From Bacillota bacterium (GTDB taxonomy: Bacteria; Bacillota; Clostridia; Peptostreptococcales; Anaerovoracaceae), in NCBI GenBank assembly GCA_016284485.1, contig JAEEOX010000154.1:1-29455 (forward strand): a stretch of 29,455 nucleotides of DNA, in the 5' to 3' direction. The position numbers and the translations under genes are program-made. The notes below the pieces were generated by a model. It was not told where the DNA came from, made no database searches, and was given only the letters and a program-made list of their open reading frames with translations. The stretch's first letter is position 1; each line of letters begins with the position of its first letter. Of the stretch, positions 3,476-23,892 are shown piece by piece.

Positions 3476-3856
3476 CTATTTGATGCGCTTGCCGATCCCT
3501 GCGAACACGCGGATGACTGCGTCAGCCTCGCCCACCAGATAGATGGCCAGGCGGCTGGCAGCCTCTCTGGCTGCCCTGTCCTTGGGATCCATGGGCACCA
3601 GTCCGCAGGAGATGTCGTTTAAGATTATCACCGAGTTGGCCCATTTGCTGCGCCTGGCAGCCATGAACTTCACCGGGTTTCTGTCCGCCTCGAGACAGGC
3701 GTAGCAGATCTCCTCCACATTGTTCAGTATTCTTTTGCTGAAATCTATGTCCACCTTGTCACGGGTGCAGTTGTACACGTCCGTGGATCTGTAGTGTGTC
3801 TTTTCCAAAGCGTATTCCAGCATTCCCTGGTACGCTCCCCCTATGATCAATACCAT
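3476..3856 (-). CDS. Short CobU/CobP-like protein with degenerate P-loop
   Basis: 126 aa; MVLIIGGAYQGM..., IILNDISCGLVP, REAASR, ADAVIRVFAGI match the CobU fold pattern. Confidence 0.7.
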   Translation of the reverse strand: MVLIIGGAYQGMLEYALEKTHYRSTDVYNCTRDKVDIDFSKRILNNVEEICYACLEADRNPVKFMAARRSKWANSVIILNDISCGLVPMDPKDRAAREAASRLAIYLVGEADAVIRVFAGIGKRIK

Positions 3857-3886
3857 TTTGACCTCCTGTAATTCAAAACATCCAAC

Positions 3887-3910
3887 TCCGGGCCCCGCGC
3901 CCGGCCCGGA
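3887..3910. other. GC-rich intercistronic hairpin without U-tract
   Basis: tccgggcc-ccgcgccc-ggcccgga, perfect 8-bp stem 3 nt after the cobS stop. Confidence 0.5.
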
Positions 3911-3913
3911 CCT

Positions 3914-4786
3914 CTATATCAGAAGCCCGACTATACCCATGAGTTCTCCCCAGAGTATGCCGTATCCGGCTATGTCGCCGTTCATGCCCTTGAGCTGATG
4001 GCGGGCGATGAGGCAGGATATCAGCGACCCCGCGAAGGAGAGAATTATTATCATCATAAGCCCGAATCTGTCCGGTCTGGGGCAGACGGTGTGGGCTATC
4101 ACCAGAAGGATCAGCAGCTGGACTGCCATGAATACGGCAGCCTTGGTGTCCTTCATCATCATCCTGTACTGGCTGGTCTCCATGGGCTCCAGGTTCATCA
4201 TCAGGAACCCTGACACCGCCCTGGGGACGGTCATTATCACTGCGAAAGCCATGAGAACGGACTTGGGATCATGTCCGCCGGTCAGCGAGTTGATCAGGCC
4301 GTTTCCCATGCCAGGCGAGAACAGCTGCAGGAGCCCTGAGCTGATCAGCGTGTCCAGCAGGGGCTTGAAGGACTGGCCCAGTCCCGGATCCACGTAGGAT
4401 GCCATGCATCCGAACTCGATGAGTACCAGGAAAATGAAGCTGACTATGGCGAAGGTCCCGCACCTGCTGTCCTTGAGGATGGCCCGCTTTTTCTGAAGAT
4501 CTCCCCTGGACATCAGGGCGTCGTTGACGTCCATGTATCCGTCCACGTGGATGAATCCCGATATCACGAAGGGTATCCAGATAAGAAGGGCTGCGGCCGC
4601 GATGTATGGCAGCTGCAGCTTGAGAGCCAGTATCCCCAGAAGTCCCCAGATCAGGCCCATCAGGAAACCTACTGTGGGCAGCCATGCCAGCATGTATGGT
4701 CTCGCCTCTTCATCCCACTTCCTGGGACCGGGTATGTAGCAAAAGTTCCCCCAGCACATGAGAAGTCCCGTCAAAACCTTTTTCAT
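3914..4786 (-). CDS. cobS: Adenosylcobinamide-GDP ribazoletransferase (cobalamin synthase)
   Basis: GFIHVDGYMDVNDA, ILKDSRCGTF and GMNGDIAG motifs; membrane protein; overlaps the cobU stop. Confidence 0.85.
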   Translation of the reverse strand: MKKVLTGLLMCWGNFCYIPGPRKWDEEARPYMLAWLPTVGFLMGLIWGLLGILALKLQLPYIAAAALLIWIPFVISGFIHVDGYMDVNDALMSRGDLQKKRAILKDSRCGTFAIVSFIFLVLIEFGCMASYVDPGLGQSFKPLLDTLISSGLLQLFSPGMGNGLINSLTGGHDPKSVLMAFAVIMTVPRAVSGFLMMNLEPMETSQYRMMMKDTKAAVFMAVQLLILLVIAHTVCPRPDRFGLMMIIILSFAGSLISCLIARHQLKGMNGDIAGYGILWGELMGIVGLLI

Positions 4787-5490
4787 CGTTCTCCCTCACC
4801 TCCGGAATGTCTGAACTCTGCCCACGGGAAATTGGCCTCCCTCTCCAGGGCCTTCGGGTGAGCCGGCGCCCCGTCCTCGCGGGATATCCCCTGGACCGCC
4901 AGCTGGACGGCCGCCTCGTCGTTCCTCTCGGCCATCCTGGTCAGTTCCTCAGGTACCTCTTCGTCTTTTTTGTACCATGTGGGGAAGCCGTAAAACATCT
5001 CTATGGCCGCATCGCATTCCTGGGCCAGCATCCTGTCTATGTCCGCCAGGCCCTTCCTGTACGCCTCCACCGTGTCCGAGTAGTCTATGGCATCGGAGTA
5101 CATGTAGTCCGACACGAAGATCAGAGAATCGAAGGTGTGGCAGAGCTCCCTGAGCTCAGCCGTGATCTTTCTGGGCGCGGAGTGATACATGCTCCCGTCC
5201 TCTCTGAACATCTCGTTGGACAGCAGGGCTGTCACCGAATCTATGAGGTAGACCCCCTCAGGATCCGTCAGCGCCTGAGACAGATTCTTTCCCGCCTCGA
5301 TGGTACGGAAACCCAGGCCGTTCCTGTTCCACTGGTGACGCTCGATCCTCTCCCTGTCCTCGTCGTCGTGAGGGATCATGGTCGCCACGTAGTAAAGCGG
5401 CCTTTCCGCCTCCCTGGCCATCTTCACGGCCAGGTTCTGGGCGAAGTCAGATTTTCCGTTTTTGGCTCCTCCTGATATGAATACGTTCAT
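4783..5490 (-). CDS. cobU: Bifunctional adenosylcobinamide kinase / cobinamide-phosphate guanylyltransferase
   Basis: ISGGAKNGKS P-loop, YYVATM, RIERHQ, LIDSVTALLSN; extra C-terminal tail. Confidence 0.85.
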   Translation of the reverse strand: MNVFISGGAKNGKSDFAQNLAVKMAREAERPLYYVATMIPHDDEDRERIERHQWNRNGLGFRTIEAGKNLSQALTDPEGVYLIDSVTALLSNEMFREDGSMYHSAPRKITAELRELCHTFDSLIFVSDYMYSDAIDYSDTVEAYRKGLADIDRMLAQECDAAIEMFYGFPTWYKKDEEVPEELTRMAERNDEAAVQLAVQGISREDGAPAHPKALEREANFPWAEFRHSGGEGER

Positions 5491-9531: not shown

Positions 9532-10686
9532 CTATTTTATATATGCTCTCTCCACGTAGGGTGATGTCGCGGTGTGAAGGGCCGCGCCGTACTCCAGCTT
9601 GAAGGAGACCACGTCGCCCACCTTGTACTCCTTGTCAGATTTGGTCACATCCAGGATCATGTGGTCGGAGGACGCGCCCAGCACGTCCACCTTGGGATCC
9701 AGGGGGATCATGCCGCCGATATCCGTATCCTGCTTGCCGATTCCCACGATGGCTCTCTTGATGACACCGCGGTCCTCATACTCAGGCACCTCGCCGAAAG
9801 CGTCCACTCCCACCTCGCCGATGGGGATGGAGGGCTTTTCCTTGAGCTCCACGATCTGAGCCTCCAGGATCAGCGCATCGTCGGTGGTTCCGGGAAGCTT
9901 GGTGAGATAAGCCGTATCGTTTCCCATGAGGAAGGATTCGCCCAGCCTCAGGTTATTCACGCCCTCAGGAAGCTTGTATGTATCCATGGTCTCTCCGGGC
10001 AGCAGTCCGCCCTGGCGTACGATCATCTCGGACTCGGGAAGCTCCTTGTTGAGAGCAAGATAGATGGACGAGGAGTTGCCGCCGGAGATGGTCTCCAGCT
10101 TGATGCCAAAGCGGTCCTCGATCTTGCGGGCGATGCTGACCAGTCCGCCCAGATTGTTGGCCTTGGGAATGATCGCTCCATAGCAGGTCAGGTTCACGCC
10201 CAGACCACAGAGCTTGATGTTCGGCATCTGAAGGATCTCCTCCACAGCTTCGAATATTTTGTCCTCATACTGGAAGAACATGCCCTCTCTCAGGTCGCCC
10301 ATGTCGATCATAAGCAGGATGCCGTGGACCTTGCCCTGGCGGCCGGCCTCTTCATTGAGGAGCCTGATGGTGGAGAGTTCCGAGTTCTGGCTCAGGTCCA
10401 CGTACTTCACCACGTCCTCGATCTCGCAGTGCATGGGGATGCGGAGGAGCATGGTCCTCTTGCCGTTCTCGTGAGCGATGTCCGCAAAAGATTTAATGTT
10501 CTTCACTCTGGAATCCGCGATCAGATCCACCTGCGGGTTGGCAGCGATGACCTTCACCATCTCCGGATCCGCGCAAAGACATTTGGTAACGATGGCCAGC
10601 GAGCATCCGGCCCTCTTGGTGATACCGGCCACAGCATTCAGATTCTGCTCCAACTTATTCAGATTTATAACGAGTCTGGGGTACAT
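9532..10686 (-). CDS. orr: Ornithine racemase (alanine racemase-like PLP enzyme)
   Basis: VTKCLCA (PLP Lys), ADSRVKN, DMGDLREG, NLTCYG, SGGNSSS, GASSDH; last gene of the ornithine cluster. Confidence 0.85.
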   Translation of the reverse strand: MYPRLVINLNKLEQNLNAVAGITKRAGCSLAIVTKCLCADPEMVKVIAANPQVDLIADSRVKNIKSFADIAHENGKRTMLLRIPMHCEIEDVVKYVDLSQNSELSTIRLLNEEAGRQGKVHGILLMIDMGDLREGMFFQYEDKIFEAVEEILQMPNIKLCGLGVNLTCYGAIIPKANNLGGLVSIARKIEDRFGIKLETISGGNSSSIYLALNKELPESEMIVRQGGLLPGETMDTYKLPEGVNNLRLGESFLMGNDTAYLTKLPGTTDDALILEAQIVELKEKPSIPIGEVGVDAFGEVPEYEDRGVIKRAIVGIGKQDTDIGGMIPLDPKVDVLGASSDHMILDVTKSDKEYKVGDVVSFKLEYGAALHTATSPYVERAYIK

Positions 10687-10721
10687 GATATATTTCTCCT
10701 TACATTATCATATTGATATCT

Positions 10722-11014
10722 GATTATTAACTGATCGTATGGCGGCGTTTTCGAAGGCGTCTTCCGCAGCGCCGGTACTTAGCGACCGACGAGCAGTAAA
10801 AATATCCGCTCTGCCGTAGGCAGCGTATCTGCAAAATAAGCAAATGGAGAGCCAAATTCTATTTGGCGATGCAGTTGGCTGTTTTGCAGATACATGGCGC
10901 GTAGCGCCACGGATATTTTTACTTAAGCGAAGCGGTCGCTTAGCACCGCTGCGCGAGGACTAAGCGAGAGCGGGCGCCTTCGTAAACGTACTGTGCGTAC
11001 GTCAGTTAATAATC
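10722..11014. repeat. Structured palindromic intergenic element A
   Basis: Nested inverted repeats (13-bp outer, 14-bp and 12-bp inner stems, three small hairpins); shares a 23/25 and a 45/50 nt block with element B. Confidence 0.85.
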
Positions 11015-12796
11015 CGTATTTCTCCACTTGCAGTGCTTTCTGAAACATGTTTTGCACTGCCTGTTGCAGTCCGGGCGAGCCTCGTCGTAGGGGGTCTCGT
11101 CGGAACCGCTGGTTTCGATGGCCTTGGAATAAGCCTCGCTGGCCGGCTCCGTCTCCCCTTCATTGGACACATAATCGTGAGCCCTCACCATGGAACGGTC
11201 GTTCATGAGCGTCTCGCGCTTGGCCGCCTCATACTCTTCCCTGGATGCGCCGCCGATCTTTTCCTTGAGGGAATTGCGGTACTCCGTCATATCGTAGCCC
11301 ATGGCCTCCATCTCGTCGATGTGATGCATGAGCTCCTCCTGCTTGGCGTCGGAAGCCTTGGCCATGGCCTGAAGCTCCCTGATCAGGGAATCCTTTCTTG
11401 TCTTGTCCACTCTCTCATGGAGCTCGATGCCCAGAGACTGGCCCAGAAGCTTGATGGCTCCCTGCCTGTGAGTCTTGGAGAGAACTCCCAGAGAAGCCAT
11501 GATGTAGTCGTTGTCCTGCAGGATCTTCACCGCATCGGAGGGATAGAGCTTCATTCCCGTCTCGTTGTCCTGAGGGATCAGCGCCATGATATCCTTGCCA
11601 TGAGGAAGTCTTGTGAGGGCGCCGCCGGTGCCCACGATGTACTTGATCTGGGTAAGGTCCTTACCCTCAGCAACGGTGGACCTGCCCGAGGGGCCGTAGA
11701 TGTAGCGGATGGATCCGGCATGTCTCTCTACGGCGCGGAGGGTGGCCTCCTTGCAGAGTCTCTCAACCAGCTTGAACTCATCCTCGTTATTGGGGATGGC
11801 CACATAGGTCTCCAGGGTCTTGTCCAGGTCGATCATCAGCTTCTCTTCGCACTCTTTCCTGAGCTTTTCCTCACCGATGGACTCGATGACCTTGTAGCGG
11901 TTCACATAAAGTCCCAGGTCGCCTTCCACGGTCCTCTTGGCCATGGGCTCCGGTGCCACCAGAACTCTGGATACCGCGTCGGAATCCTCAGACACCGAGT
12001 GAACGTCGGTGGTGGCGCCGCCTACGTCGATGGTCATCACCTCTCCCAGGCAGTCGTACAAAAGTTTCGTGCACTCCATGACCGCTCCCGGCGTAGGGAT
12101 TATGGGGCCGTTGACCATGTCTCTCACGTGCTCCATGCCCGGGGCCTTGGTGATGTTGTCCTCGAATGCCGCCTGTATGACTTTACGGCAGGGCTCCACG
12201 TTGAGCTGGTCGATCTTGGGATATACGTTGTCAACCAGGTAGAGTTCCTGGCCGCTCTCCTCATCGAAGATCAGCTTCATCTCCTCCTGGTTCTCTATGT
12301 TTCCGGCATATACGACGGGGATGTGCAGCCCCATGGAGCGGATCATCTCTGCGTTGTATATGGCCGTATCTCTCTCTCCGAAATCCACGCCTCCCGCGAT
12401 CAGGATCAGGTTTGGCTTGATCTCCTTGATCTTCTGGAGGTCCGTGCGTCTCAGTCTGCCGACTGTGATGTCGTGGATGATGCCGCCTGCGCCCAGAGCA
12501 GCCTCTCTCGCCGCCTTGGCCGTCATGTCGTACACCAGGCCGTGCACGGTCATCTTCAGTCCGCCGGCAGCGGATGAAGTGGCAAGCATCTCATCATATT
12601 CCAGGGTGTCTATGCCCATCTTTTGCTTCAGGTCGTCGATGGCTCCCTGAAGACCTACCCTCACGTCCCCCTGGAGGACGGAAGTAGGTGCCTGACCCTG
12701 GGCCCAAAAAACGGGCTTCTCGGTGTCAAGTCCGATGAACGCATTTACTACCGTTGTGGTGGAGCCGATCTCGGCTACCAAAACATCTACTTTCAT
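11006..12796 (-). CDS. GlmL/MutL-like ornithine aminomutase reactivating factor with C-terminal Cys-rich extension
   Basis: Actin-like motifs AEIGSTTT, TSSAAGGL, IDVGGATTDVHS, RTVEGDLG, GTGGAL; located between oraE and orr. Confidence 0.85.
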   Translation of the reverse strand: MKVDVLVAEIGSTTTVVNAFIGLDTEKPVFWAQGQAPTSVLQGDVRVGLQGAIDDLKQKMGIDTLEYDEMLATSSAAGGLKMTVHGLVYDMTAKAAREAALGAGGIIHDITVGRLRRTDLQKIKEIKPNLILIAGGVDFGERDTAIYNAEMIRSMGLHIPVVYAGNIENQEEMKLIFDEESGQELYLVDNVYPKIDQLNVEPCRKVIQAAFEDNITKAPGMEHVRDMVNGPIIPTPGAVMECTKLLYDCLGEVMTIDVGGATTDVHSVSEDSDAVSRVLVAPEPMAKRTVEGDLGLYVNRYKVIESIGEEKLRKECEEKLMIDLDKTLETYVAIPNNEDEFKLVERLCKEATLRAVERHAGSIRYIYGPSGRSTVAEGKDLTQIKYIVGTGGALTRLPHGKDIMALIPQDNETGMKLYPSDAVKILQDNDYIMASLGVLSKTHRQGAIKLLGQSLGIELHERVDKTRKDSLIRELQAMAKASDAKQEELMHHIDEMEAMGYDMTEYRNSLKEKIGGASREEYEAAKRETLMNDRSMVRAHDYVSNEGETEPASEAYSKAIETSGSDETPYDEARPDCNRQCKTCFRKHCKWRNTDY

Positions 12797-12825
12797 ACTT
12801 TTTTCCTTATAATCTGATACGAACT

Positions 12826-12999
12826 TGAAAGAAGATAAAAAGTAAGGGAACTTGTATCGCTAAAGGCACTTTGGGATACCGGTCCTTAGCGACAGCCAAG
12901 GGCATCACCCTTGGCTGAGCTTAGAACCGCTGTTGGGCTCCCAAGTAGCGGGAGCGGCCTTAGAGATACATCGTTCCCTTGGTATTTAGTCTTCTTTCA
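12826..12999. repeat. Structured palindromic intergenic element C (short version)
   Basis: Core motifs CCGGTCCTTAGCGA (12879-12892) and GCTTAGAACCGCT (12919-12931) flank a perfect 10-bp hairpin; imperfect outer inverted repeat. Confidence 0.75.
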
Positions 13000-15235
13000 G
13001 ATCTTCCGGACGGAATCCGTGAGGAACTTCTCCTCTTCTTCTCTGTCTCTCCTGAGCCAGGAAGGTTGCTACGTCGATTCCGTGAGAGTTACGTCCGAAT
13101 CCCATGTCGATACCTGTCTTCAGAGCTTCCTCGGGGATTACCTGAGTTCCGCCTGCGCAGATGATGATCTTGTCTCTGATACCCTTTTCGATGGCCAGAT
13201 CGTTGATCCTCTTCATGTTCTTGTAGTGGACGTTGTCGTGGGAAATGATGGTGGAAGCCAGGATGGCCTGAGCGTTCTCCTCGATGCATGCGTCTACGAT
13301 CTTTTCCACCGGTACGGATGTTCCGAGGTATACGCACTCGATGCCCCACTTCTCGATGCCGCCGTGCTTGATGTTGATGATCTCACGCATTCCTACGGAG
13401 TGCTCGTCATCACCGACTGTTCCGCAGACGACCTTCATGTGTTCATGTCCCTCGAACTCTTCATAGAGTTCAGCGTCGCTCATTACGTAGGGCTCAGGCG
13501 GGATCTCCAGTGTGGTAAGGTCGATGTCGAAGTCTACCTTGCCCTTGATCTCGATCCTGGTTCCCTCTGCCGGCTGGAGAACTTCTGCGGAAATAACTTC
13601 CGGGTTCACCAGGCCAAGCTTCTTGGCCAGTTCTGTACCTGCTGCTTCAGCAACACGCTTCTCGCAGGGCAGGCAGAATACCAGCATGATCGTGCGGTCT
13701 CCGCACCACTCAACTTCGGGAGTGATGCACTTGCCGGTCCTGTATTTTGCGACAGCTTCAAGTCTCTTCTCTACGCAGTCCTCGGGGTCAAGCTCGTCGA
13801 TGTAGACGATCTTGGAGTGATCCTCGAATGTGCAGCCGCCGATGAGGGCTGACGGGTTCTCGGGATCTCCGCCGTACTGCTCAACGTTGTTGTATCCATA
13901 GTGAGCGGTGACGGGAGCCATGTAGTCTTCGTCTCTCTTGAAGATGAAGCCTGCTCCGAATCCTCCGTCGATCTTACGGGCGATACCGTCGCCGTTTCTC
14001 TCGGGATATTCGCCGGAGTCTACGAAGAAGCCGTCCTGAACGGCGTTGAAGTATCCGCCGACTTCAAGGATCTCTTCTACGTAAAGGACTGCTCTTTCCT
14101 TGAGCTCTCTGGCCTTTTCTCTTAAAGGTCCGTCCTTCTTGAGCTCTACCATGTCCATGATGCCGTCCAGACCGATCAGTGTCTGCTTGGCTGTATCCGT
14201 GGCTTCAATGTTGAAGATGTGCCAGGGAACGTTACGTCCTTCGTCAGGAGTAATGGTGGACTGGATGTCTACGGAGGTCAGCTTGGAAATGAACATGTTC
14301 ATTACGTGAGTTACTGTAGCCTCTGTGGTTGAGCTCTGTACATACTTGGTGTTCTGCTGTGCTCTCATCTTGTATCTGCCGCAGAAGTCACGAAGGGCTA
14401 CTGCATAGGGCAGGTCGAGGTACATGCAGGGTGCCGGTGTTGCCGAAGGCGGTACCGTTGACAGCGAGATGAGATCCGGCGGAAGGCCGATCCTCTCGGA
14501 GAAGTATGAGTTGATGGCGTGCTGCACGATGAGCTCGGGCATTACCTTCCATGCGTCACGGGCTGTAGCGTTGGCGTTGTGAGCTCCGTCGATCTGGAGC
14601 ATGTTGGCCCATGCCATGATCTTCTTGGATTCGCAGGCGTCTACGAAGGATCTTACCATGTTTACGTCTCTGTAAAGAACGTTGTACTGGGGGTCCTGGT
14701 GAGCGCCGTTGATGCCCTCTTCTGCGAACATGACGGCGATGTCAGGTCCTGCAACTCCGGAAATGTAGGAGTGATAGTTGATGGGACGGCCAACTTCGTC
14801 TTCGATCATGTCGATGGCCTTCCTCTGTGCCCTTACCTGCTTACGGGTAACGGGTACGCCGCCGATTCCCTGAGGAGTACCTTCCATGAGGCCGTCGATG
14901 TGGGACTGTCCCATGTGTCTGATTACCATCAGGTGGTCTGCGCCGTGCCATGCGGCCATTCTCATACGACGAACGTCGTCCTCGAATCTGCCGGATGCGA
15001 TCTCGGTAGTGATTACCGGCATCGGCTGCGGGTCGATATTATCAAGGAACTTAGCCGGAGGAAGAGGAACGGAGTTCTTCAGGTCCTTGGAAAGTTCATG
15101 ATATTCAAACTGATATCTGTGCTGGTTGGGGTCTTTCTCTCTCCATGTCCAGCCGCGGCGTCTGGGCTCATATTTGTCAAGGTCTTTGAGGAGCTCTACG
15201 ACGTCAAGTTTCTCGTTGGGTTTCAATACTTGCAT
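12986..15235 (-). CDS. oraE: D-ornithine 4,5-aminomutase beta subunit (AdoCbl + PLP)
   Basis: Start MQVLKPNEKLDV (GGAGG RBS), YEPRRRGW, EIASGRFEDD, base-off DEHSVG motif, PLP lysine in IKHGG. Confidence 0.95.
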   Translation of the reverse strand: MQVLKPNEKLDVVELLKDLDKYEPRRRGWTWREKDPNQHRYQFEYHELSKDLKNSVPLPPAKFLDNIDPQPMPVITTEIASGRFEDDVRRMRMAAWHGADHLMVIRHMGQSHIDGLMEGTPQGIGGVPVTRKQVRAQRKAIDMIEDEVGRPINYHSYISGVAGPDIAVMFAEEGINGAHQDPQYNVLYRDVNMVRSFVDACESKKIMAWANMLQIDGAHNANATARDAWKVMPELIVQHAINSYFSERIGLPPDLISLSTVPPSATPAPCMYLDLPYAVALRDFCGRYKMRAQQNTKYVQSSTTEATVTHVMNMFISKLTSVDIQSTITPDEGRNVPWHIFNIEATDTAKQTLIGLDGIMDMVELKKDGPLREKARELKERAVLYVEEILEVGGYFNAVQDGFFVDSGEYPERNGDGIARKIDGGFGAGFIFKRDEDYMAPVTAHYGYNNVEQYGGDPENPSALIGGCTFEDHSKIVYIDELDPEDCVEKRLEAVAKYRTGKCITPEVEWCGDRTIMLVFCLPCEKRVAEAAGTELAKKLGLVNPEVISAEVLQPAEGTRIEIKGKVDFDIDLTTLEIPPEPYVMSDAELYEEFEGHEHMKVVCGTVGDDEHSVGMREIINIKHGGIEKWGIECVYLGTSVPVEKIVDACIEENAQAILASTIISHDNVHYKNMKRINDLAIEKGIRDKIIICAGGTQVIPEEALKTGIDMGFGRNSHGIDVATFLAQERQRRRGEVPHGFRPEDLKED

Positions 15236-15236
15236 C

Positions 15237-15599
15237 TTACTTACCTCCCTTGAAAGCTGCCACGACCTTGTCCCATCCCTCGCCCTCAGCGAGCTTGATG
15301 GAAGCGTCACGGATCGAAATGTTCTCTAACTTCGATAACTTGTATACGCAGTGGCCTGCGCCCTTGCCCATGAGGCCGTGATCCATGCAGTGGTTCACGA
15401 TCTTCTGGGTATCCAGTGAAGACACACCCATCCTCATGAGGACGGCACGCTCTACTGAAGGAGTGGTGTTCTCGTAGCCCAGCTTGAGCAGAGGCTCGTC
15501 CACCTGTCTGATCAGATCCCAGAATCTGTCATAGAGTTCCTGGTCCGTAAGATCCTTCAGATGCTGATGTCTTACTTCAAAATCGTCTTCTCTTTTCAT
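15237..15599 (-). CDS. oraS: D-ornithine 4,5-aminomutase alpha subunit
   Basis: MKREDDFEVR..., ENTTPSVERAVLMRMG, GLMGKGAGH; directly upstream of oraE. Confidence 0.93.
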   Translation of the reverse strand: MKREDDFEVRHQHLKDLTDQELYDRFWDLIRQVDEPLLKLGYENTTPSVERAVLMRMGVSSLDTQKIVNHCMDHGLMGKGAGHCVYKLSKLENISIRDASIKLAEGEGWDKVVAAFKGGK

Positions 15600-15651
15600 C
15601 CTATATTTCTCCTTTATTAGTGGTCGCTTTTCATCTACTTCTTAAAAAGCA

Positions 15652-15895
15652 TTTTGTAGGATGGAGCTTCCGCAGCGTCGGTTCTTAGCGATCCGCAAGC
15701 CGTCAGATCAATTCGTACTGCCTGTGGCAGTTCCCGTGCAAAAGTATGGGTGCGGGTCCGTATTTATACGGAGAAGCGACCATCCTTTTGCGCGGGTAGA
15801 GTCGCGGAGCGACTCGAATTGATCTGTCGATAAGCGAAGCGGTCGCTTAGAACCGCTACGCGAGGACTGAGCGCAAGCGGCTCCATCCTACAAAA
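15652..15895. repeat. Structured palindromic intergenic element B
   Basis: Perfect 16-bp outer inverted repeat ttttgtaggatggagc/gctccatcctacaaaa; same stem architecture and core motifs as element A. Confidence 0.85.
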
Positions 15896-15903
15896 GATGA
15901 TTT

Positions 15904-17322
15904 TTAAAGTCCAAGAGTTTCCTTTACGAAAGCGATGTCGGTCTTTGTCTCGTCAGCCAGATACTGGAGGTCTTCCGGTGTAAGGTTCTCGAGAGCAACG
16001 CCCGCCTTCTGTACGGCCTTCTTGATCCTGGAACGTCTGAAGTGATCCAGGTCAGCCACTTTGTGCTTGATGTAGCTGGGGTCTTTCGGAAGTATGATGT
16101 TGACACCCGGCTTATCCTCTTCCTGAGGAATACCGAAGTGGATGTCGATGCCGTTCTCTCTTGCGAATGCAAGCTGCGGCTGGATGTGCTTGCCGGCTCC
16201 GGTGTACTCTGTCTCGGAAACTACGAGGATAGCGTCCTCGGGCATCTCCTGAGCCAGGGAGAAGGCAGCTGTAAGAGCTGTGTTGCCTGCAGGACCTCTC
16301 TCAAGTCCTTCCAGGTTGGCCAGCATCTCTGTCATGTACAGGAACTCGCCCTGAGTTACTGTGACGTACTTGTCCATGTAGCGGAGAGGTCTCGCTGCGG
16401 AACGGGGAACGTCGGAGTGGTCGGGGTCTGTAGCATAGGGAACGCCGAATCCGGTGTGTCCTGTGGTGCAGGACTTACGGTTGAAGTCGACGTCGGATGC
16501 CATTGAAAGTCCGCTGAGGTCGATGGATGCTGCATATACTTTGGTATCCTTGCAGCCGGCCTTAAGCAGTCCTCTTGCAGTACCTGTCAGCATTCCGCCG
16601 CCTGCGTTGGTGCAGACTACCAGGTCCGGATCTCTTCCCAGCTTCTCTCTGCACTGCATCGCGATCTCGTAGCCGAGAGTCTCGATACCGGAGATACCGA
16701 AGGGTGAGTAAAGGGAAGCGTTGAAGAATCCTGTGTCCTCAAGTACGGAAAGTGTGGTGTAGAAAAGCTCGGGTCCTACTGTGAGCTGGATAACTTCAGC
16801 TCCGAGAGCCTCGCACTTTCTGGCCTTCTCAACGATCTCAGGCTGGCCGATTCCCTTGGAATCATAGCACTCCTGAACGATGATGCACTCAAGTCCCTGC
16901 ATTGCGGCCTGGGAAGCAACGGCTGCGCCGTAGTTTCCGGATGTTGCTGCTACAACGCCCTTGTAGCCAAGCTTCTTGGCGTGAGCGCATGCGCAGGCAG
17001 CACGTCTGTCCTTGAAGGAACCGGAAGCGTTGGCAGCTTCGTCCTTGACGAAGATCCTGGCGCCGTAACCCGGCTTAGCATATTTTCTTGCGAGAGCTGT
17101 GATGTTTCTCAGCTCGAGAAGCGGTGTGTTGCCAACTCCTGTTCTGGACTGGATCCTGTTGATCTCGTCCAGGGTGTAGTTGGTTGATTTCATAAGAGCT
17201 TCATAATCGAAGGCAACTGAGCCGGACTCGAAGGGTGTGTAGTCAAGTCCAAGGGCTTCCTTCATGATGTCGTTGCCTCTTGCCATCACGGAATCATAAT
17301 CTTTTGGTAAATTCACTGCCAT
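15904..17322 (-). CDS. ortB: 2-amino-4-oxopentanoate thiolase beta subunit
   Basis: PLP fold II (GNTPL, KDEAANASGSFKDR, ATSGNYG), N-terminal DIMKEALGLDY; TAATG overlap with ortA. Confidence 0.92.
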   Translation of the reverse strand: MAVNLPKDYDSVMARGNDIMKEALGLDYTPFESGSVAFDYEALMKSTNYTLDEINRIQSRTGVGNTPLLELRNITALARKYAKPGYGARIFVKDEAANASGSFKDRRAACACAHAKKLGYKGVVAATSGNYGAAVASQAAMQGLECIIVQECYDSKGIGQPEIVEKARKCEALGAEVIQLTVGPELFYTTLSVLEDTGFFNASLYSPFGISGIETLGYEIAMQCREKLGRDPDLVVCTNAGGGMLTGTARGLLKAGCKDTKVYAASIDLSGLSMASDVDFNRKSCTTGHTGFGVPYATDPDHSDVPRSAARPLRYMDKYVTVTQGEFLYMTEMLANLEGLERGPAGNTALTAAFSLAQEMPEDAILVVSETEYTGAGKHIQPQLAFARENGIDIHFGIPQEEDKPGVNIILPKDPSYIKHKVADLDHFRRSRIKKAVQKAGVALENLTPEDLQYLADETKTDIAFVKETLGL

Positions 17323-17624
17323 TATTTCTCACCTCCGTGAAGGATCTCTCTCAGCTGACGGTCGATCTCGATGATCTCGGGAACGAAGTCGCCATAGCTG
17401 TGAGTGTAATGAGGTCTCTCTTCGAAAAGAGTTCCCTTTTCAAGACGTCCTGCTGCTGTAAGAACTGTTACTTCGTCTCCGATCTCAGCGGCCTCGTCCT
17501 GTAAAAAACCTTTAGTCCACATCTGAAGGTCAGATGCCCTTGTATCGTCGGGAAGTTTTCCCGTACGCTGCTCGGATCTGAGTACGATGTTATGGATGCG
17601 GACCCAATCTCCTTTTTTAGCCAT
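17322..17624 (-). CDS. ortA: 2-amino-4-oxopentanoate thiolase alpha subunit
   Basis: Start MAKKGDWVRIH (AGGAG RBS), QMWTKGFL, PHYTHSYG; 100 aa. Confidence 0.9.
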   Translation of the reverse strand: MAKKGDWVRIHNIVLRSEQRTGKLPDDTRASDLQMWTKGFLQDEAAEIGDEVTVLTAAGRLEKGTLFEERPHYTHSYGDFVPEIIEIDRQLREILHGGEK

Positions 17625-17645
17625 TTTTCTCTCCTTATTTGCTGA

Positions 17646-17681
17646 CATGAGGCACGCCGATCGCCGCCGGCGTGCCCCATG
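17646..17681. other. Intercistronic hairpin between ord and ortA
   Basis: ggcacgccg-atcgccgc-cggcgtgcc 9-bp stem extended by catg/catg; no U-tract. Confidence 0.55.
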
Positions 17682-17709
17682 AGTCATAAATCAAATTAAG
17701 CTCGTCTGA

Positions 17710-18765
17710 TTATTTTACGATCTTCTTGTCTTCTGCGATGAAGTCTCTGAAGTCGCCCATGATAGCTCTGGGAATCGGAAGGTCGATCATTGTCTTGAGG
17801 CCGGGCTCAGCATTGATAACGAACGGGATCATGTTCACGCACATAGCGATTGTTCCAAGTCCTCCTTCGATCTCGGGAGAGTTCTTCATGTTTACGTTGG
17901 GAGTTCCCTTGATGATTACATAGTCACCGGTCTGGATGCCGACCTGCTCGGGCTCGATCTGCTGCGGGTGATCCATGTGTACGGGGATTCCGCCGGAGAG
18001 CTTAGCTTCTGCTGTCATGGCAACGCCTGCGCAGGAACCTGCTGCTGCGAATCCGTAGGGGGACTTTCTGTCAACGTCAGTTGTGATGGGGTTCATGTCC
18101 TGGGAGAACTCTTCAACCTTGAGTCCCATACCAGCAGCCATCATGCCAACGGACTCTGCGAATCCAACGTGGCCGGACATTGTGTGGTTAGCTTTCCTCT
18201 CAAGGAATTCCTCAACGGGGATGCCGATGCCCTGCTCATGCATTACGAGCGGTCCGAAGGGTGAAAGTGAGTTGACTCTTCTTGAAGTGATCTCTTCAAC
18301 GTCTGTAAGTACGCCTGTCCAAACGAGAACCAGAAGGTCCATGATGTGGCCGGGGTTAACGCCTGTTCCAAGGATGGAAACGCCGTTTTCCTTAGCGATC
18401 TTGTCAAGTTCAGCTGCGAGGTCAGGATTCTGAGCTGCAGGGAATGCCATCTCTTCTGCGGAAGTGATGCAGTTGATCTTCTGCTCAAGGATAAACTTCA
18501 TCTTGGGGAAAGCTTCCTTTGTGAAGGAGTCGGTGCAGAGAAGAACGATGTCAGCTGCGCCGGGCTTGATGATGGACTCGTCCTGGATGATGACGTCCGG
18601 TCTGTCGCCTCTCTCTGTCTTGATGTAGTCATACATGGAAGTTCCGATCTTCTTGTTTCTTCCAACGACGCCTACGATCTCAACGCCCTTCTTCCTGAGA
18701 AGCATGTCAGCCATTCCGCCGCCCATTGAGCCTAAACCCCAAATGATTACTTTTACATTTTCCAT
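17710..18765 (-). CDS. ord: 2,4-diaminopentanoate dehydrogenase
   Basis: Rossmann IIWGLGSMG, ILGTGVNPG, RVNSLSPFG, GHVGFAES, HPQQIEPE; first gene of the ort/ora cluster. Confidence 0.92.
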   Translation of the reverse strand: MENVKVIIWGLGSMGGGMADMLLRKKGVEIVGVVGRNKKIGTSMYDYIKTERGDRPDVIIQDESIIKPGAADIVLLCTDSFTKEAFPKMKFILEQKINCITSAEEMAFPAAQNPDLAAELDKIAKENGVSILGTGVNPGHIMDLLVLVWTGVLTDVEEITSRRVNSLSPFGPLVMHEQGIGIPVEEFLERKANHTMSGHVGFAESVGMMAAGMGLKVEEFSQDMNPITTDVDRKSPYGFAAAGSCAGVAMTAEAKLSGGIPVHMDHPQQIEPEQVGIQTGDYVIIKGTPNVNMKNSPEIEGGLGTIAMCVNMIPFVINAEPGLKTMIDLPIPRAIMGDFRDFIAEDKKIVK

Positions 18766-23648: not shown

Positions 23649-23839
23649 TACTGTACGATCTGGATTTTTTGTAATAGTACAGTAAAAAATCTTCATTTTC
23701 CTTGGAAAAGCCTTGTTTTCAGCCTGTTTCCCTCAGTTTTCTCAAAGTAATTACTGTACATATAGAGAAAATCTATTTTGTACAGTAAAACACGGAACCT
23801 CCCTACTGTACGATTTTAATATTTTGAAATCATACAGTA
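23649..23839. repeat. Array of three TACTGTAC-N20-(G/A)TACAGTA inverted repeats
   Basis: Units at 23649-23684, 23752-23787 and 23804-23839; each spacer is exactly 20 nt. Confidence 0.9.
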
Positions 23840-23892
23840 ATGCGGGTCGACACAATTCCAAGCCTAGCCTTTTGCCCCTCGCCCAACAACAT

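What the first reader, a model, noticed from the sequence alone, without database searches (positions are those of the whole stretch)
10722..15907. Family of modular, fully folded intergenic elements with conserved cores but swapped stems, inserted three times in one operon
Seen: elements A (10722-11014) and B (15652-15895) share CTTCCGCAGCGyCGGTwCTTAGCGA (10761-10785 vs 15667-15691, 23/25) and a 50-nt block starting TAAGCGAAGCGGTCGCTTAG (10924-10973 vs 15831-15880, 45/50). Between these blocks the sequences differ but the fold is the same. Both have a long closing stem (A agtaaaaatatccg/cggatatttttact; B cagatcaattcg/cgaattgatctg) and a CTGCC-NNN-GGCAG hairpin. Both have a TGCAAAA/TTTTGC stem enclosing a central hairpin (A gccaaat/atttggc; B tccgtat/atacgga) and a GNA-triloop hairpin (A tggcgc-GTA-gcgcca; B gagtcgc-GGA-gcgactc). 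All three copies end in AGC-GNRA-GCGG (GAGA, GCAA, GGGA) on the + strand, antisense to the operon. Inference: whole-stem covariation suggests selection on structure. Candidates are a structured RNA or mRNA-processing element, or a non-autonomous ssDNA-hairpin mobile element (REP/REPIN-like, mobilised in trans by an HUH transposase). No cognate enzyme is encoded in this window.
Basis: partly seen in the sequence, partly recalled or inferred. Interest (0 to 1): 0.8.

Follow-up and report, generated by a model that had tools for sequence, protein, structure and literature searches.

The report
Widespread folded palindromic repeat, mobiliser unknown
The three folded stretches between genes of the ornithine-degradation operon are copies of a dispersed palindromic repeat found in many rumen and gut Bacillota; it has an almost invariant core, stems that vary but keep pairing, no match in the databases and papers searched, and no identifiable enzyme that moves it.

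Summary
A (10722-11014), B (15640-15907) and C (12826-12999) are near-complete hairpin rods that share two core blocks.

They are not specific to this operon. The genome (a 1.63-Mb Anaerovoracaceae MAG) holds at least 12 copies. A covariance model finds the family in 27 of 151 Anaerovoracaceae genomes, with up to 24 or more copies each. An exact-pattern scan finds the core in Lachnospiraceae, Selenomonadaceae and other herbivore-gut Bacillota.

Pairing is kept through compensatory changes: 93-95% of cells pair, 23-26 of 32 pairs show double changes, and 0 of 500 shuffles reach this.

One strand is favoured (G.T 76 against A.C 12; that strand folds 11-17 kcal/mol better). Orientation relative to genes is not significantly biased.

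Presence differs between close relatives. The outer arms are locus-specific and copy the neighbouring gene's end, stop codon included.

There is no Rfam hit, no common target duplication or shared termini, no recurrent neighbouring gene and no RAYT/IS200 link. G000 shows no Y1, IS110 or TnpB gene.

Best reading (about 45%): a REPIN-like, non-autonomous element recognised as a folded single strand, with an unknown mobiliser. In this operon it acts as passive hairpins between genes. The scan had not noted this family on other DNA.

The parts
10722..11014 (+). Element A, whole palindrome (long form). It lies between the MutL-like gene (stop at 11006-11008) and the racemase gene (start at 10686). 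The outermost arm covers the stop and two codons.
   Evidence: The + strand folds at -151.4 kcal/mol against -134.5 for the - strand.
10761..10794 (+). A, 5' core block: TTCCGCAGCGCCGGTACTTAGCGA, then the 5' side of P3, then GAGC.
   Evidence: D17. Loose ends of metagenome contigs at 10761/10762 mark the left edge of the repeated unit.
10795..10923 (+). A, interior module: a 14-bp closing stem enclosing three hairpins. It sits in the apical loop of the core.
   Evidence: It is absent from the orthologous copy in G002, which has the same outer arms.
10924..10973 (+). A, 3' core block: GCGAAG, the 3' side of P3, GCTTAGCACCGCTGCGCGAGGAC, and the AGC-GAGA-GCGG mini-hairpin.
   Evidence: D8. Loose ends at 10972/10973 mark its right edge.
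12826..12999 (+). Element C, whole palindrome (short, diverged form). It lies between oraE (stop at 12986-12988) and the MutL-like gene. The left arm 12826-12851 is an inverted copy of the last 11 nt of oraE, its stop and the following bases.
   Evidence: Orthologous copies exist in G002 and G006.
12855..12970 (+). C, the part that matches the core covariance model.
   Evidence: 46.2 bits, E about 1e-10.
15640..15907 (+). Element B, whole palindrome (long form). It lies between ortB (stop at 15904-15906) and oraS (start at 15599). The core blocks are 15667-15700 and 15831-15880, and the interior is 15701-15830.
   Evidence: B is absent at this site in G006 and G002, whose flanks are 98% and 95% identical, and in strains seen in RNA libraries (joint 15624 to 15904 with 71 other letters).
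9532..18765 (-). Host operon carrying the three copies: ord (17710-18765), ortA (17322-17687), ortB (15904-17322), oraS (15237-15599), oraE (12986-15310), MutL-like (11006-12796) and a racemase (9532-10686).
   Evidence: Pfam assignments.

Best explanation
A, B and C are copies of a dispersed, non-autonomous palindromic repeat family of the REPIN kind.

Anatomy (shown). Each copy is a rod. Locus-specific outer arms of 10-45 bp enclose a conserved core of about 82 nt. The core consists of:
- two inverted half-sites, CCGGT-N-CTTAGCGA and GAGCTTAG-N-ACCGCTGCG, which pair with a fixed T.T mismatch;
- a loop that could form tandem G.A pairs (my reading of the consensus, not tested);
- a short variable stem (P3);
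- a side mini-hairpin RY-GNRA-RY.
The apical loop of the core is either short, or carries an insert of about 50 nt, or carries a three-hairpin module of about 125 nt.

Also shown. The family is multicopy and spans several orders. Stems covary. One strand is favoured. Presence and absence differ between close relatives. The arms contain copied host sequence.

Inferred mechanism.
- The core is recognised as a folded single strand, more likely DNA than RNA, by a trans-acting protein not yet identified. Only lineages that keep the core and the pairing go on spreading.
- Copies land in short spacers, often right after stop codons, and swap inner modules by recombination at the conserved blocks.
- The palindrome then grows outwards by templated copying of the flank. 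That would explain why the arms include the end of the neighbouring gene.
- In the ord operon the copies are passengers. In the mRNA they form very stable hairpins between genes, which may attenuate or stabilise transcript segments.
For: Multicopy and dispersed.
- At least 12 copies in G000, many at contig ends.
- Found in 8 of 10 genomes of the genus.
- Found in 27 of 151 Anaerovoracaceae genomes, 25 of 121 genera, with up to 24 or more copies where only 25 candidates were scored per genome.
- More than 112 exact-pattern hits in Lachnospiraceae, Butyrivibrio, Eisenbergiella, Selenomonadaceae, Mogibacterium and others.

Pairing kept. 94.6% and 93.0% of cells pair, 23 and 26 of 32 pairs show double changes, and 0 of 500 shuffles reach this.

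Strand asymmetry. G.T 76 against A.C 12 in one alignment and 49 against 6 in another. The GNRA and C-GNA-G loops lie on one strand. That strand folds 11-17 kcal/mol better.

Gain, loss and turnover.
- B is absent in G006 and G002 despite 98% and 95% identical flanks.
- The C205 pair of copies is absent in G002, G009 and G001.
- The A site is a 17-24-nt spacer in G001 and G009. In G002 it holds a short form with the same arms. In G006 it holds a different long form with different arms.
- Two G166 copies are absent in G029.

Arms copy host sequence. C's left arm is an inverted copy of the oraE end. A's and C205b's arms include the stop codon. At L087 one arm pre-exists in the empty site and the other is new. 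About 17 of 80 palindromes overlap a neighbouring stop codon.

A subfamily that moved with its arms. G166 holds 8 copies that share about 35-nt arms, each with a further unique outermost stem.

No cognate gene nearby.
Against: - No mobilising enzyme was found. G000 has no Y1, IS110 or TnpB hit. The Y2 search also found nothing, but its control rang nowhere, so that search is uninformative. The assembly is only 92% complete.
- There is no target duplication and there are no shared termini, so no insertion chemistry can be read from the junctions.
- There is no strong bias relative to local GC skew (13 to 7 in G153). An IS200/IS605-type mechanism aimed at the lagging-strand template would predict one.
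- No near-identical donor of B exists in the genus representatives. B may therefore have arrived by allelic recombination rather than transposition.
- An invariant core across several orders, combined with covarying stems, is also what a functional RNA looks like.
- Folded DNA versus folded RNA was not tested directly.
Confidence: 0.45

Rival explanations
1. A structured non-coding RNA family. Either a cis-acting element in 3' UTRs and between genes that binds a conserved protein or nuclease, or a multicopy small RNA. The conserved internal loops and the GNRA hairpin would be the functional RNA surface.
For: - Invariant loops with covarying stems across orders.
- A GNRA tetraloop hairpin whose 2-bp stem covaries (pairs 139/146 and 140/145).
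- G.U favoured on one strand.
- Most copies lie in transcribed spacers next to stop codons.
- RNA-library contigs contain the element.
Against: - Orientation relative to flanking co-directional genes is mixed: 24 antisense to 15 sense overall, and 5 to 6 in G153. In this operon the structured strand is antisense.
- Seven copies lie between divergent genes.
- The sequence to the left of the core is not conserved between copies, so no shared promoter is evident there. This rests on reading the flanks; family-wide promoter scans were not run.
- T-runs after the palindrome are rare, 7 of 74.
- No Rfam match even at E up to 10.
- The many C-GNA-G triloops and the GCGAAGC motif are, from my own knowledge of the DNA mini-hairpin literature, more typical of DNA than of RNA.
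Confidence: 0.25
2. A folded-DNA or duplex recognition site for a host or mobile recombinase or DNA-binding protein. Possible analogues are integron attC sites, Xer sites or the gyrase- and IHF-binding REP/BIME elements. Under this reading it is kept for a host function rather than as a selfish element.
For: - A strand-specific rod with fixed mismatches and a variable terminal structure, from a short loop to a branched module, recalls attC anatomy. The attC comparison is from my own knowledge.
- It sits right after gene ends.
- Whole elements are exchanged at one fixed site between close relatives.
Against: - Here the ends vary and the centre is conserved, the reverse of attC.
- There are no arrays, and gene order is the same with or without the element.
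- Distribution is patchy, 25 of 121 genera, which argues against a housekeeping role.
- No recurrent neighbouring integrase.
Confidence: 0.15
3. Ordinary intrinsic terminators or attenuator hairpins that happen to share sequence.
For: - B and C are followed by T5 runs in the operon's direction.
- Related genomes have plain hairpins at sites B and C.
- RNA-library depth drops after oraE.
Against: - Only 7 of 74 copies have at least 6 T in the 10 nt after the palindrome, and 9 of 76 on the other side.
- A has no T-run.
- Rods of 130-290 nt with a core conserved across orders are not terminator-like.
- The contig depth is not quantitative, and assemblies break at repeats.
Confidence: 0.05

Closest known systems
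REP / REPIN elements (repetitive extragenic palindromes and their inverted doublets, mobilised by RAYT Y1-HUH transposases)
   Same: Extragenic and multicopy. Two inverted half-sites form a long hairpin. Pairing is kept by compensatory change. There is no target duplication and no terminal inverted repeats shared with an insertion sequence. A single-strand-specific structure is implied.
   Different: No conserved GTAG or CGTC head was seen. No RAYT or Y1 gene is associated. The core is longer (about 82 nt) and has fixed internal loops and a GNRA side hairpin. It carries optional nested modules. It spans several orders of Bacillota. Its outer arms are locus-specific.
Bacterial MITEs and modular repeats (Correia/CREE, ERIC, and BOX with its A-B-C modules)
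   Same: Small, non-coding, intergenic and able to fold. Module content varies, as in BOX. Copies are co-transcribed with operons.
   Different: MITEs have terminal inverted repeats shared by all copies plus target duplications. Here the termini differ at every locus and no duplication is seen. No parent insertion sequence was found.
Integron attC sites and other folded-ssDNA recombination sites
   Same: A strand-selective folded rod with fixed unpaired bases and a variable terminal structure, placed just after gene ends.
   Different: In attC the conserved boxes are at the outer ends and the centre varies. Here it is the reverse. The copies are not in cassette arrays, and no integrase association was seen.
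IS200/IS605-derived palindrome-associated elements (PATEs)
   Same: No terminal inverted repeats and no target duplication. Hairpins are read on one strand.
   Different: Those have separate left-end and right-end hairpins and need TnpA (Y1). G000 has no Y1 or TnpB hit. No clear replication-strand bias was seen.

Membership tests
REP/REPIN | High-copy extragenic imperfect palindromes, often as inverted doublets that form one hairpin | tested here: met
   At least 12 copies in G000 and 24 or more in G166. The two inverted half-sites pair.
REP/REPIN | A RAYT (Y1 HUH, PF01797) gene in the genome, typically flanked by the repeats | tested here: not met
   G000 has 0 hits. Only 13 of 27 element-bearing genomes have any Y1 hit. 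Six RAYT-sized genes have no element within about 2.5 kb. Nine genomes with such genes have no element.
REP/REPIN | A conserved GTAG or CGTC tetranucleotide at the head of the palindrome | tested here: not met
   No such conserved head appears in alignments A1, A2 or A6. The conserved letters are internal: CCGGTNCTTAGCGA and GAGCTTAGNACCGCTGCG.
MITE | Terminal inverted repeats shared by all copies, plus direct target-site duplications | tested here: not met
   The palindrome ends are locus-specific. TTAA on both sides occurs in only 2 of 78 copies.
MITE | A related autonomous insertion sequence with the same ends | tested here: not met
   Among 180 copies, none has its halves split around an ORF. 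Neighbouring genes are only ABC, histidine-kinase and MatE families.
Rfam RNA families | A covariance-model match at or near the gathering score | tested here: not met
   No hit at the gathering threshold over the whole window. No relevant hit at E up to 10 on A or on a short copy.
Intrinsic terminator | A hairpin followed directly by a T-run | tested here: not met
   7 of 74 copies have at least 6 T in the 10 nt after the palindrome, and 9 of 76 on the opposite side. B and C do have T5 runs.
Integron attC | Conserved outer R''/R' boxes (RYYYAAC and GTTRRRY), cassette arrays and a nearby intI gene | tested here: inconclusive
   The outer ends vary and the copies are dispersed, not in arrays. 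The presence of intI was not searched.
IS200/IS605-type ssDNA elements | Orientation bias relative to the replication direction | tested here: inconclusive
   In G153 the split is 13 to 7 relative to local 20-kb GC skew. This is a noisy proxy on a draft assembly.

The most novel reading that the evidence does not exclude
The family is a new kind of mobile or self-propagating folded-strand element. It would spread across orders of gut Bacillota without any known hairpin-type transposase, insert at gene ends, nest inside its own apical loop, and build its palindrome by copying host flanks. That would imply a mobilisation mechanism or a host factor not yet described.
Probability: 0.15. Interest if true: 0.9.

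Novelty: new variant of a known kind. Interest (0 to 1): 0.66.

Why it matters
- It defines a large repeat family in rumen and gut Bacillota (Anaerovoracaceae, Lachnospiraceae, Selenomonadaceae) that I could not find described. A core conserved across orders, with stems that covary, calls for a specific partner protein that is still unknown.
- It gives a natural case in which palindrome arms demonstrably copy coding sequence. That bears on how long hairpins arise and on how far 'covariation' can be trusted as proof of RNA function.
- The family fragments metagenome assemblies, since many copies sit at contig ends.
- It places hairpins of -130 to -150 kcal/mol inside operons, so it probably shapes operon expression.
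- The covariance model built here can be used to annotate the family.

Tried and rejected
- Rfam: no family.
- RAYT/IS200 link: not supported.
- IS110, TnpB and IS91 Y2 in G000: none found. The Y2 control rang nowhere, so that search is uninformative.
- Plasmid and phage collections: no match. IMG/VR: one hit among 2.9 million contigs.
- Recurrent neighbouring gene: only generic families.
- Autonomous copy with an ORF between the halves: none. L350 proved to be three separate copies around a deaminase-like gene.
- TTAA target duplication, suggested by A and B here and by the G006 A-site copy: not general, 2 of 78.
- Insertion into the loop of a pre-existing hairpin: four empty sites (A, C205, L100, L087) show no such hairpin, and the B site holds a different hairpin. 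Rejected as the general rule.
- General terminator role: rejected.
- Orientation bias relative to genes (24 to 15) and to GC skew (13 to 7): not significant.
- Near-identical donor of B in the genus: none found.
- Literature searches by topic and by sequence words, and two repeat surveys: nothing matching.
- RNA libraries: only assembled contigs without strand information. They show presence and the edges of the repeat, not transcription of a given strand.


Full report
**Setting**

The window is contig C132 of a 1.63-Mb MAG with 215 contigs, 92% complete and 53% G+C. Record titles of close relatives place it in the Anaerovoracaceae, from ruminant gut.

The minus strand carries an ornithine-degradation operon:
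- a sigma-54 activator;
- ord, ortA and ortB;
- element B;
- oraS and oraE;
- element C;
- a MutL-like gene;
- element A;
- a racemase.

**Checking the observation**

- The two blocks shared by A and B are real, at 45 of 50 and 30 of 37 identical positions.
- All three elements end in AGC-GNRA-GCGG on the + strand.
- Each folds nearly end to end, with z-scores of -9 to -12 against dinucleotide shuffles.
- In an alignment of 12 long copies, 32 of 54 predicted pairs show compensatory change.

**What it is**

The trio is not specific to the operon.
- BLAST and a covariance model (R1, built from 12 short copies) find at least 12 copies in this genome, many at contig ends.
- 8 of 10 genomes of the genus have it.
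- 27 of 151 genomes of the family, in 25 of 121 genera, have it. Some show 24 or more matches although only 25 candidates were scored per genome.
- Other families of the order gave one weak hit in 132 genomes.
- An exact pattern for the core (CCGGTNCTTAGCGA, 18-48 nt, GAGCTTAGNACCGCTGCG) hit more than 112 stretches in species representatives. These include Lachnospiraceae, Butyrivibrio, Eisenbergiella, Wujia, Anaerotignum, Selenomonadaceae/Schwartzia and Mogibacterium, nearly all from herbivore-gut MAGs.

**Anatomy**

- Locus-specific outer arms of 10-45 bp.
- A variable stem that covaries (TCC/GGA in this genus).
- GYGC/GCRC and CGGT/ACCG stems, with a CT bulge.
- CTTAGC paired with GCTTAG, with a fixed T.T mismatch.
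- A GA/GA loop.
- A 4-5-bp stem (P3) that covaries freely.
- An RA/GMA loop.
- A 2-bp stem (P4).
- An apical loop that is either short, or holds about 50 nt, or holds a module of about 125 nt with three hairpins.
- On the 3' side, a mini-hairpin RY-GNRA-RY whose two pairs also covary.

**Covariation**

| Alignment | Distinct copies | Cells paired | Pairs with double changes | Cells with double changes | Shuffles reaching this | Slid partners pair at |
|---|---|---|---|---|---|---|
| Genus and family | 40 | 94.6% | 23 of 32 | 175 | 0 of 500 | 30-46% |
| Cross-order | 65 | 93.0% | 26 of 32 | 385 | 0 of 500 | 23-42% |

Both alignments were fitted to the model, which leans towards its structure.

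**Which strand**

G.T outnumbers A.C by 76 to 12 and by 49 to 6. The GNRA and C-GNA-G loops lie on the window's + strand. That strand folds 11-17 kcal/mol better than its complement. One strand therefore matters as a single strand. In this operon that strand is antisense to the genes.

**Orientation and position**

- Between co-directional genes the split is 19 antisense to 9 sense in the first 60 copies, and 5 to 6 in G153, so 24 to 15 overall. This is not significant.
- Seven copies lie between divergent genes.
- Relative to local GC skew in G153 the split is 13 to 7.
- The 3' side often lies within 20 nt of a stop codon.
- About 17 of 80 palindromes overlap a neighbouring stop codon by 2-21 nt.
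- T-runs after the palindrome are rare, 7 of 74.

**Gain, loss and turnover**

- B is missing in G006 and G002, whose flanks are 98% and 95% identical. Both carry a different, shorter hairpin there. Strains in sheep-gut RNA libraries also lack B.
- The two copies at C205 are missing in G002, G009 and G001.
- The A site varies between genomes:

| Genome | What sits at the A site |
|---|---|
| G001, G009 | a 17-24-nt spacer |
| G002 | the same arms as G000 around a short core |
| G006 | different arms around a different long form |

- A's inner part is closer (83%) to a copy at another locus of G006 than to its own ortholog in G002. This points to module exchange at the conserved blocks.
- Two G166 copies are absent in G029.
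- G166 holds a subfamily of 8 copies that share about 35-nt arms, each with a further unique outermost stem of 8-13 bp.

**The arms copy host sequence**

- C's left arm (12826-12851) is an inverted copy of the last 11 nt of oraE, its stop and the next bases. That coding end is conserved in relatives without the element, so the coding end is the source of the copy.
- A's and C205b's arms include the stop codon and 4-6 nt before it.
- At L087, one arm pre-exists in the empty site and the other is new.

I infer outward growth of the palindrome by templated copying, that is, intrastrand template switching at quasi-palindromes. This is an established mutational process, but it was not shown here. 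The same process could generate some of the apparent covariation in the outer arms.

**Mobiliser**

None was found.
- There is no Y1 association.
- G000 has no Y1, IS110 or TnpB hit. The Y2 search also found nothing, but its control rang nowhere.
- No neighbouring gene recurs.
- No copy holds an ORF between its halves.
- There is nothing in the plasmid or phage collections, and one hit in IMG/VR.
- There is no common target duplication and there are no shared termini.

**RNA evidence**

Only assembled contigs from RNA libraries were available.
- They show that 10762-10973 is the repeated unit: contigs diverge exactly there.
- Many short-form relatives are present in the same samples.
- Summed depth falls after oraE. 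This is suggestive at most, because assemblies break at repeats.

**Verdict**

| Reading | My estimate |
|---|---|
| REPIN-like interspersed element read as a folded single strand, mobiliser unknown | about 45% |
| Structured RNA family | about 25% |
| Protein or recombinase recognition site | about 15% |
| Plain terminators | about 5% |

Within the databases and papers I could search, the family is undescribed.

Noticed in passing
window 23649-23840: Two 37-nt units, TACTGTACGAT...TACAGTAA, 155 nt apart and 81% alike, each with inverted ends (family D18).
   Followed up: no
L102 about 2225-2297 (G006), L101 (G002), and G000:C124:14177: Where G000 has element B, G006 and G002 carry a different long hairpin centred on GCGCAAAAGATCTTTTGCGC. 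The same 20-mer hairpin occurs once elsewhere in G000. It may be a second, smaller palindromic repeat. Its GCAAAAG/CTTTTGC stem resembles the central stem of the interior module.
   Followed up: partly
L127-L132 (for example G166:C67:13396-13725): Anaerovoracaceae genomes carry Y1_Tnp-like ORFs of 250-280 aa with weak Pfam scores (40-69 bits). These are longer than ordinary IS200 TnpA. They are not linked to the element.
   Followed up: partly
L350, reverse strand about 3750-4830: In a Selenomonadaceae-type record, three copies of the element lie around one small gene that looks like a deoxycytidylate deaminase by eye. One copy is upstream and two are downstream, and one is inverted.
   Followed up: no
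L087 1125-1180: Tandem repeats of GATTGGAGACTTGA lie directly beside an element copy in G166. The empty site in G029 has a single GGAGATTGGAGATTGAG.
   Followed up: no
window 12604-13137: In three RNA libraries, summed contig depth is high over ord-ortAB-oraSE and near zero just downstream of oraE, across site C. This fits a 3' end or attenuation at C, but assembly breaks at repeats could produce the same picture.
   Followed up: partly
window 11006-11419: The MutL-like protein has 596 aa, while its Pfam MutL domain ends near residue 454. Relatives end in RWRNTNY or similar, and G000 and G006 end in NTDY.
   Followed up: no
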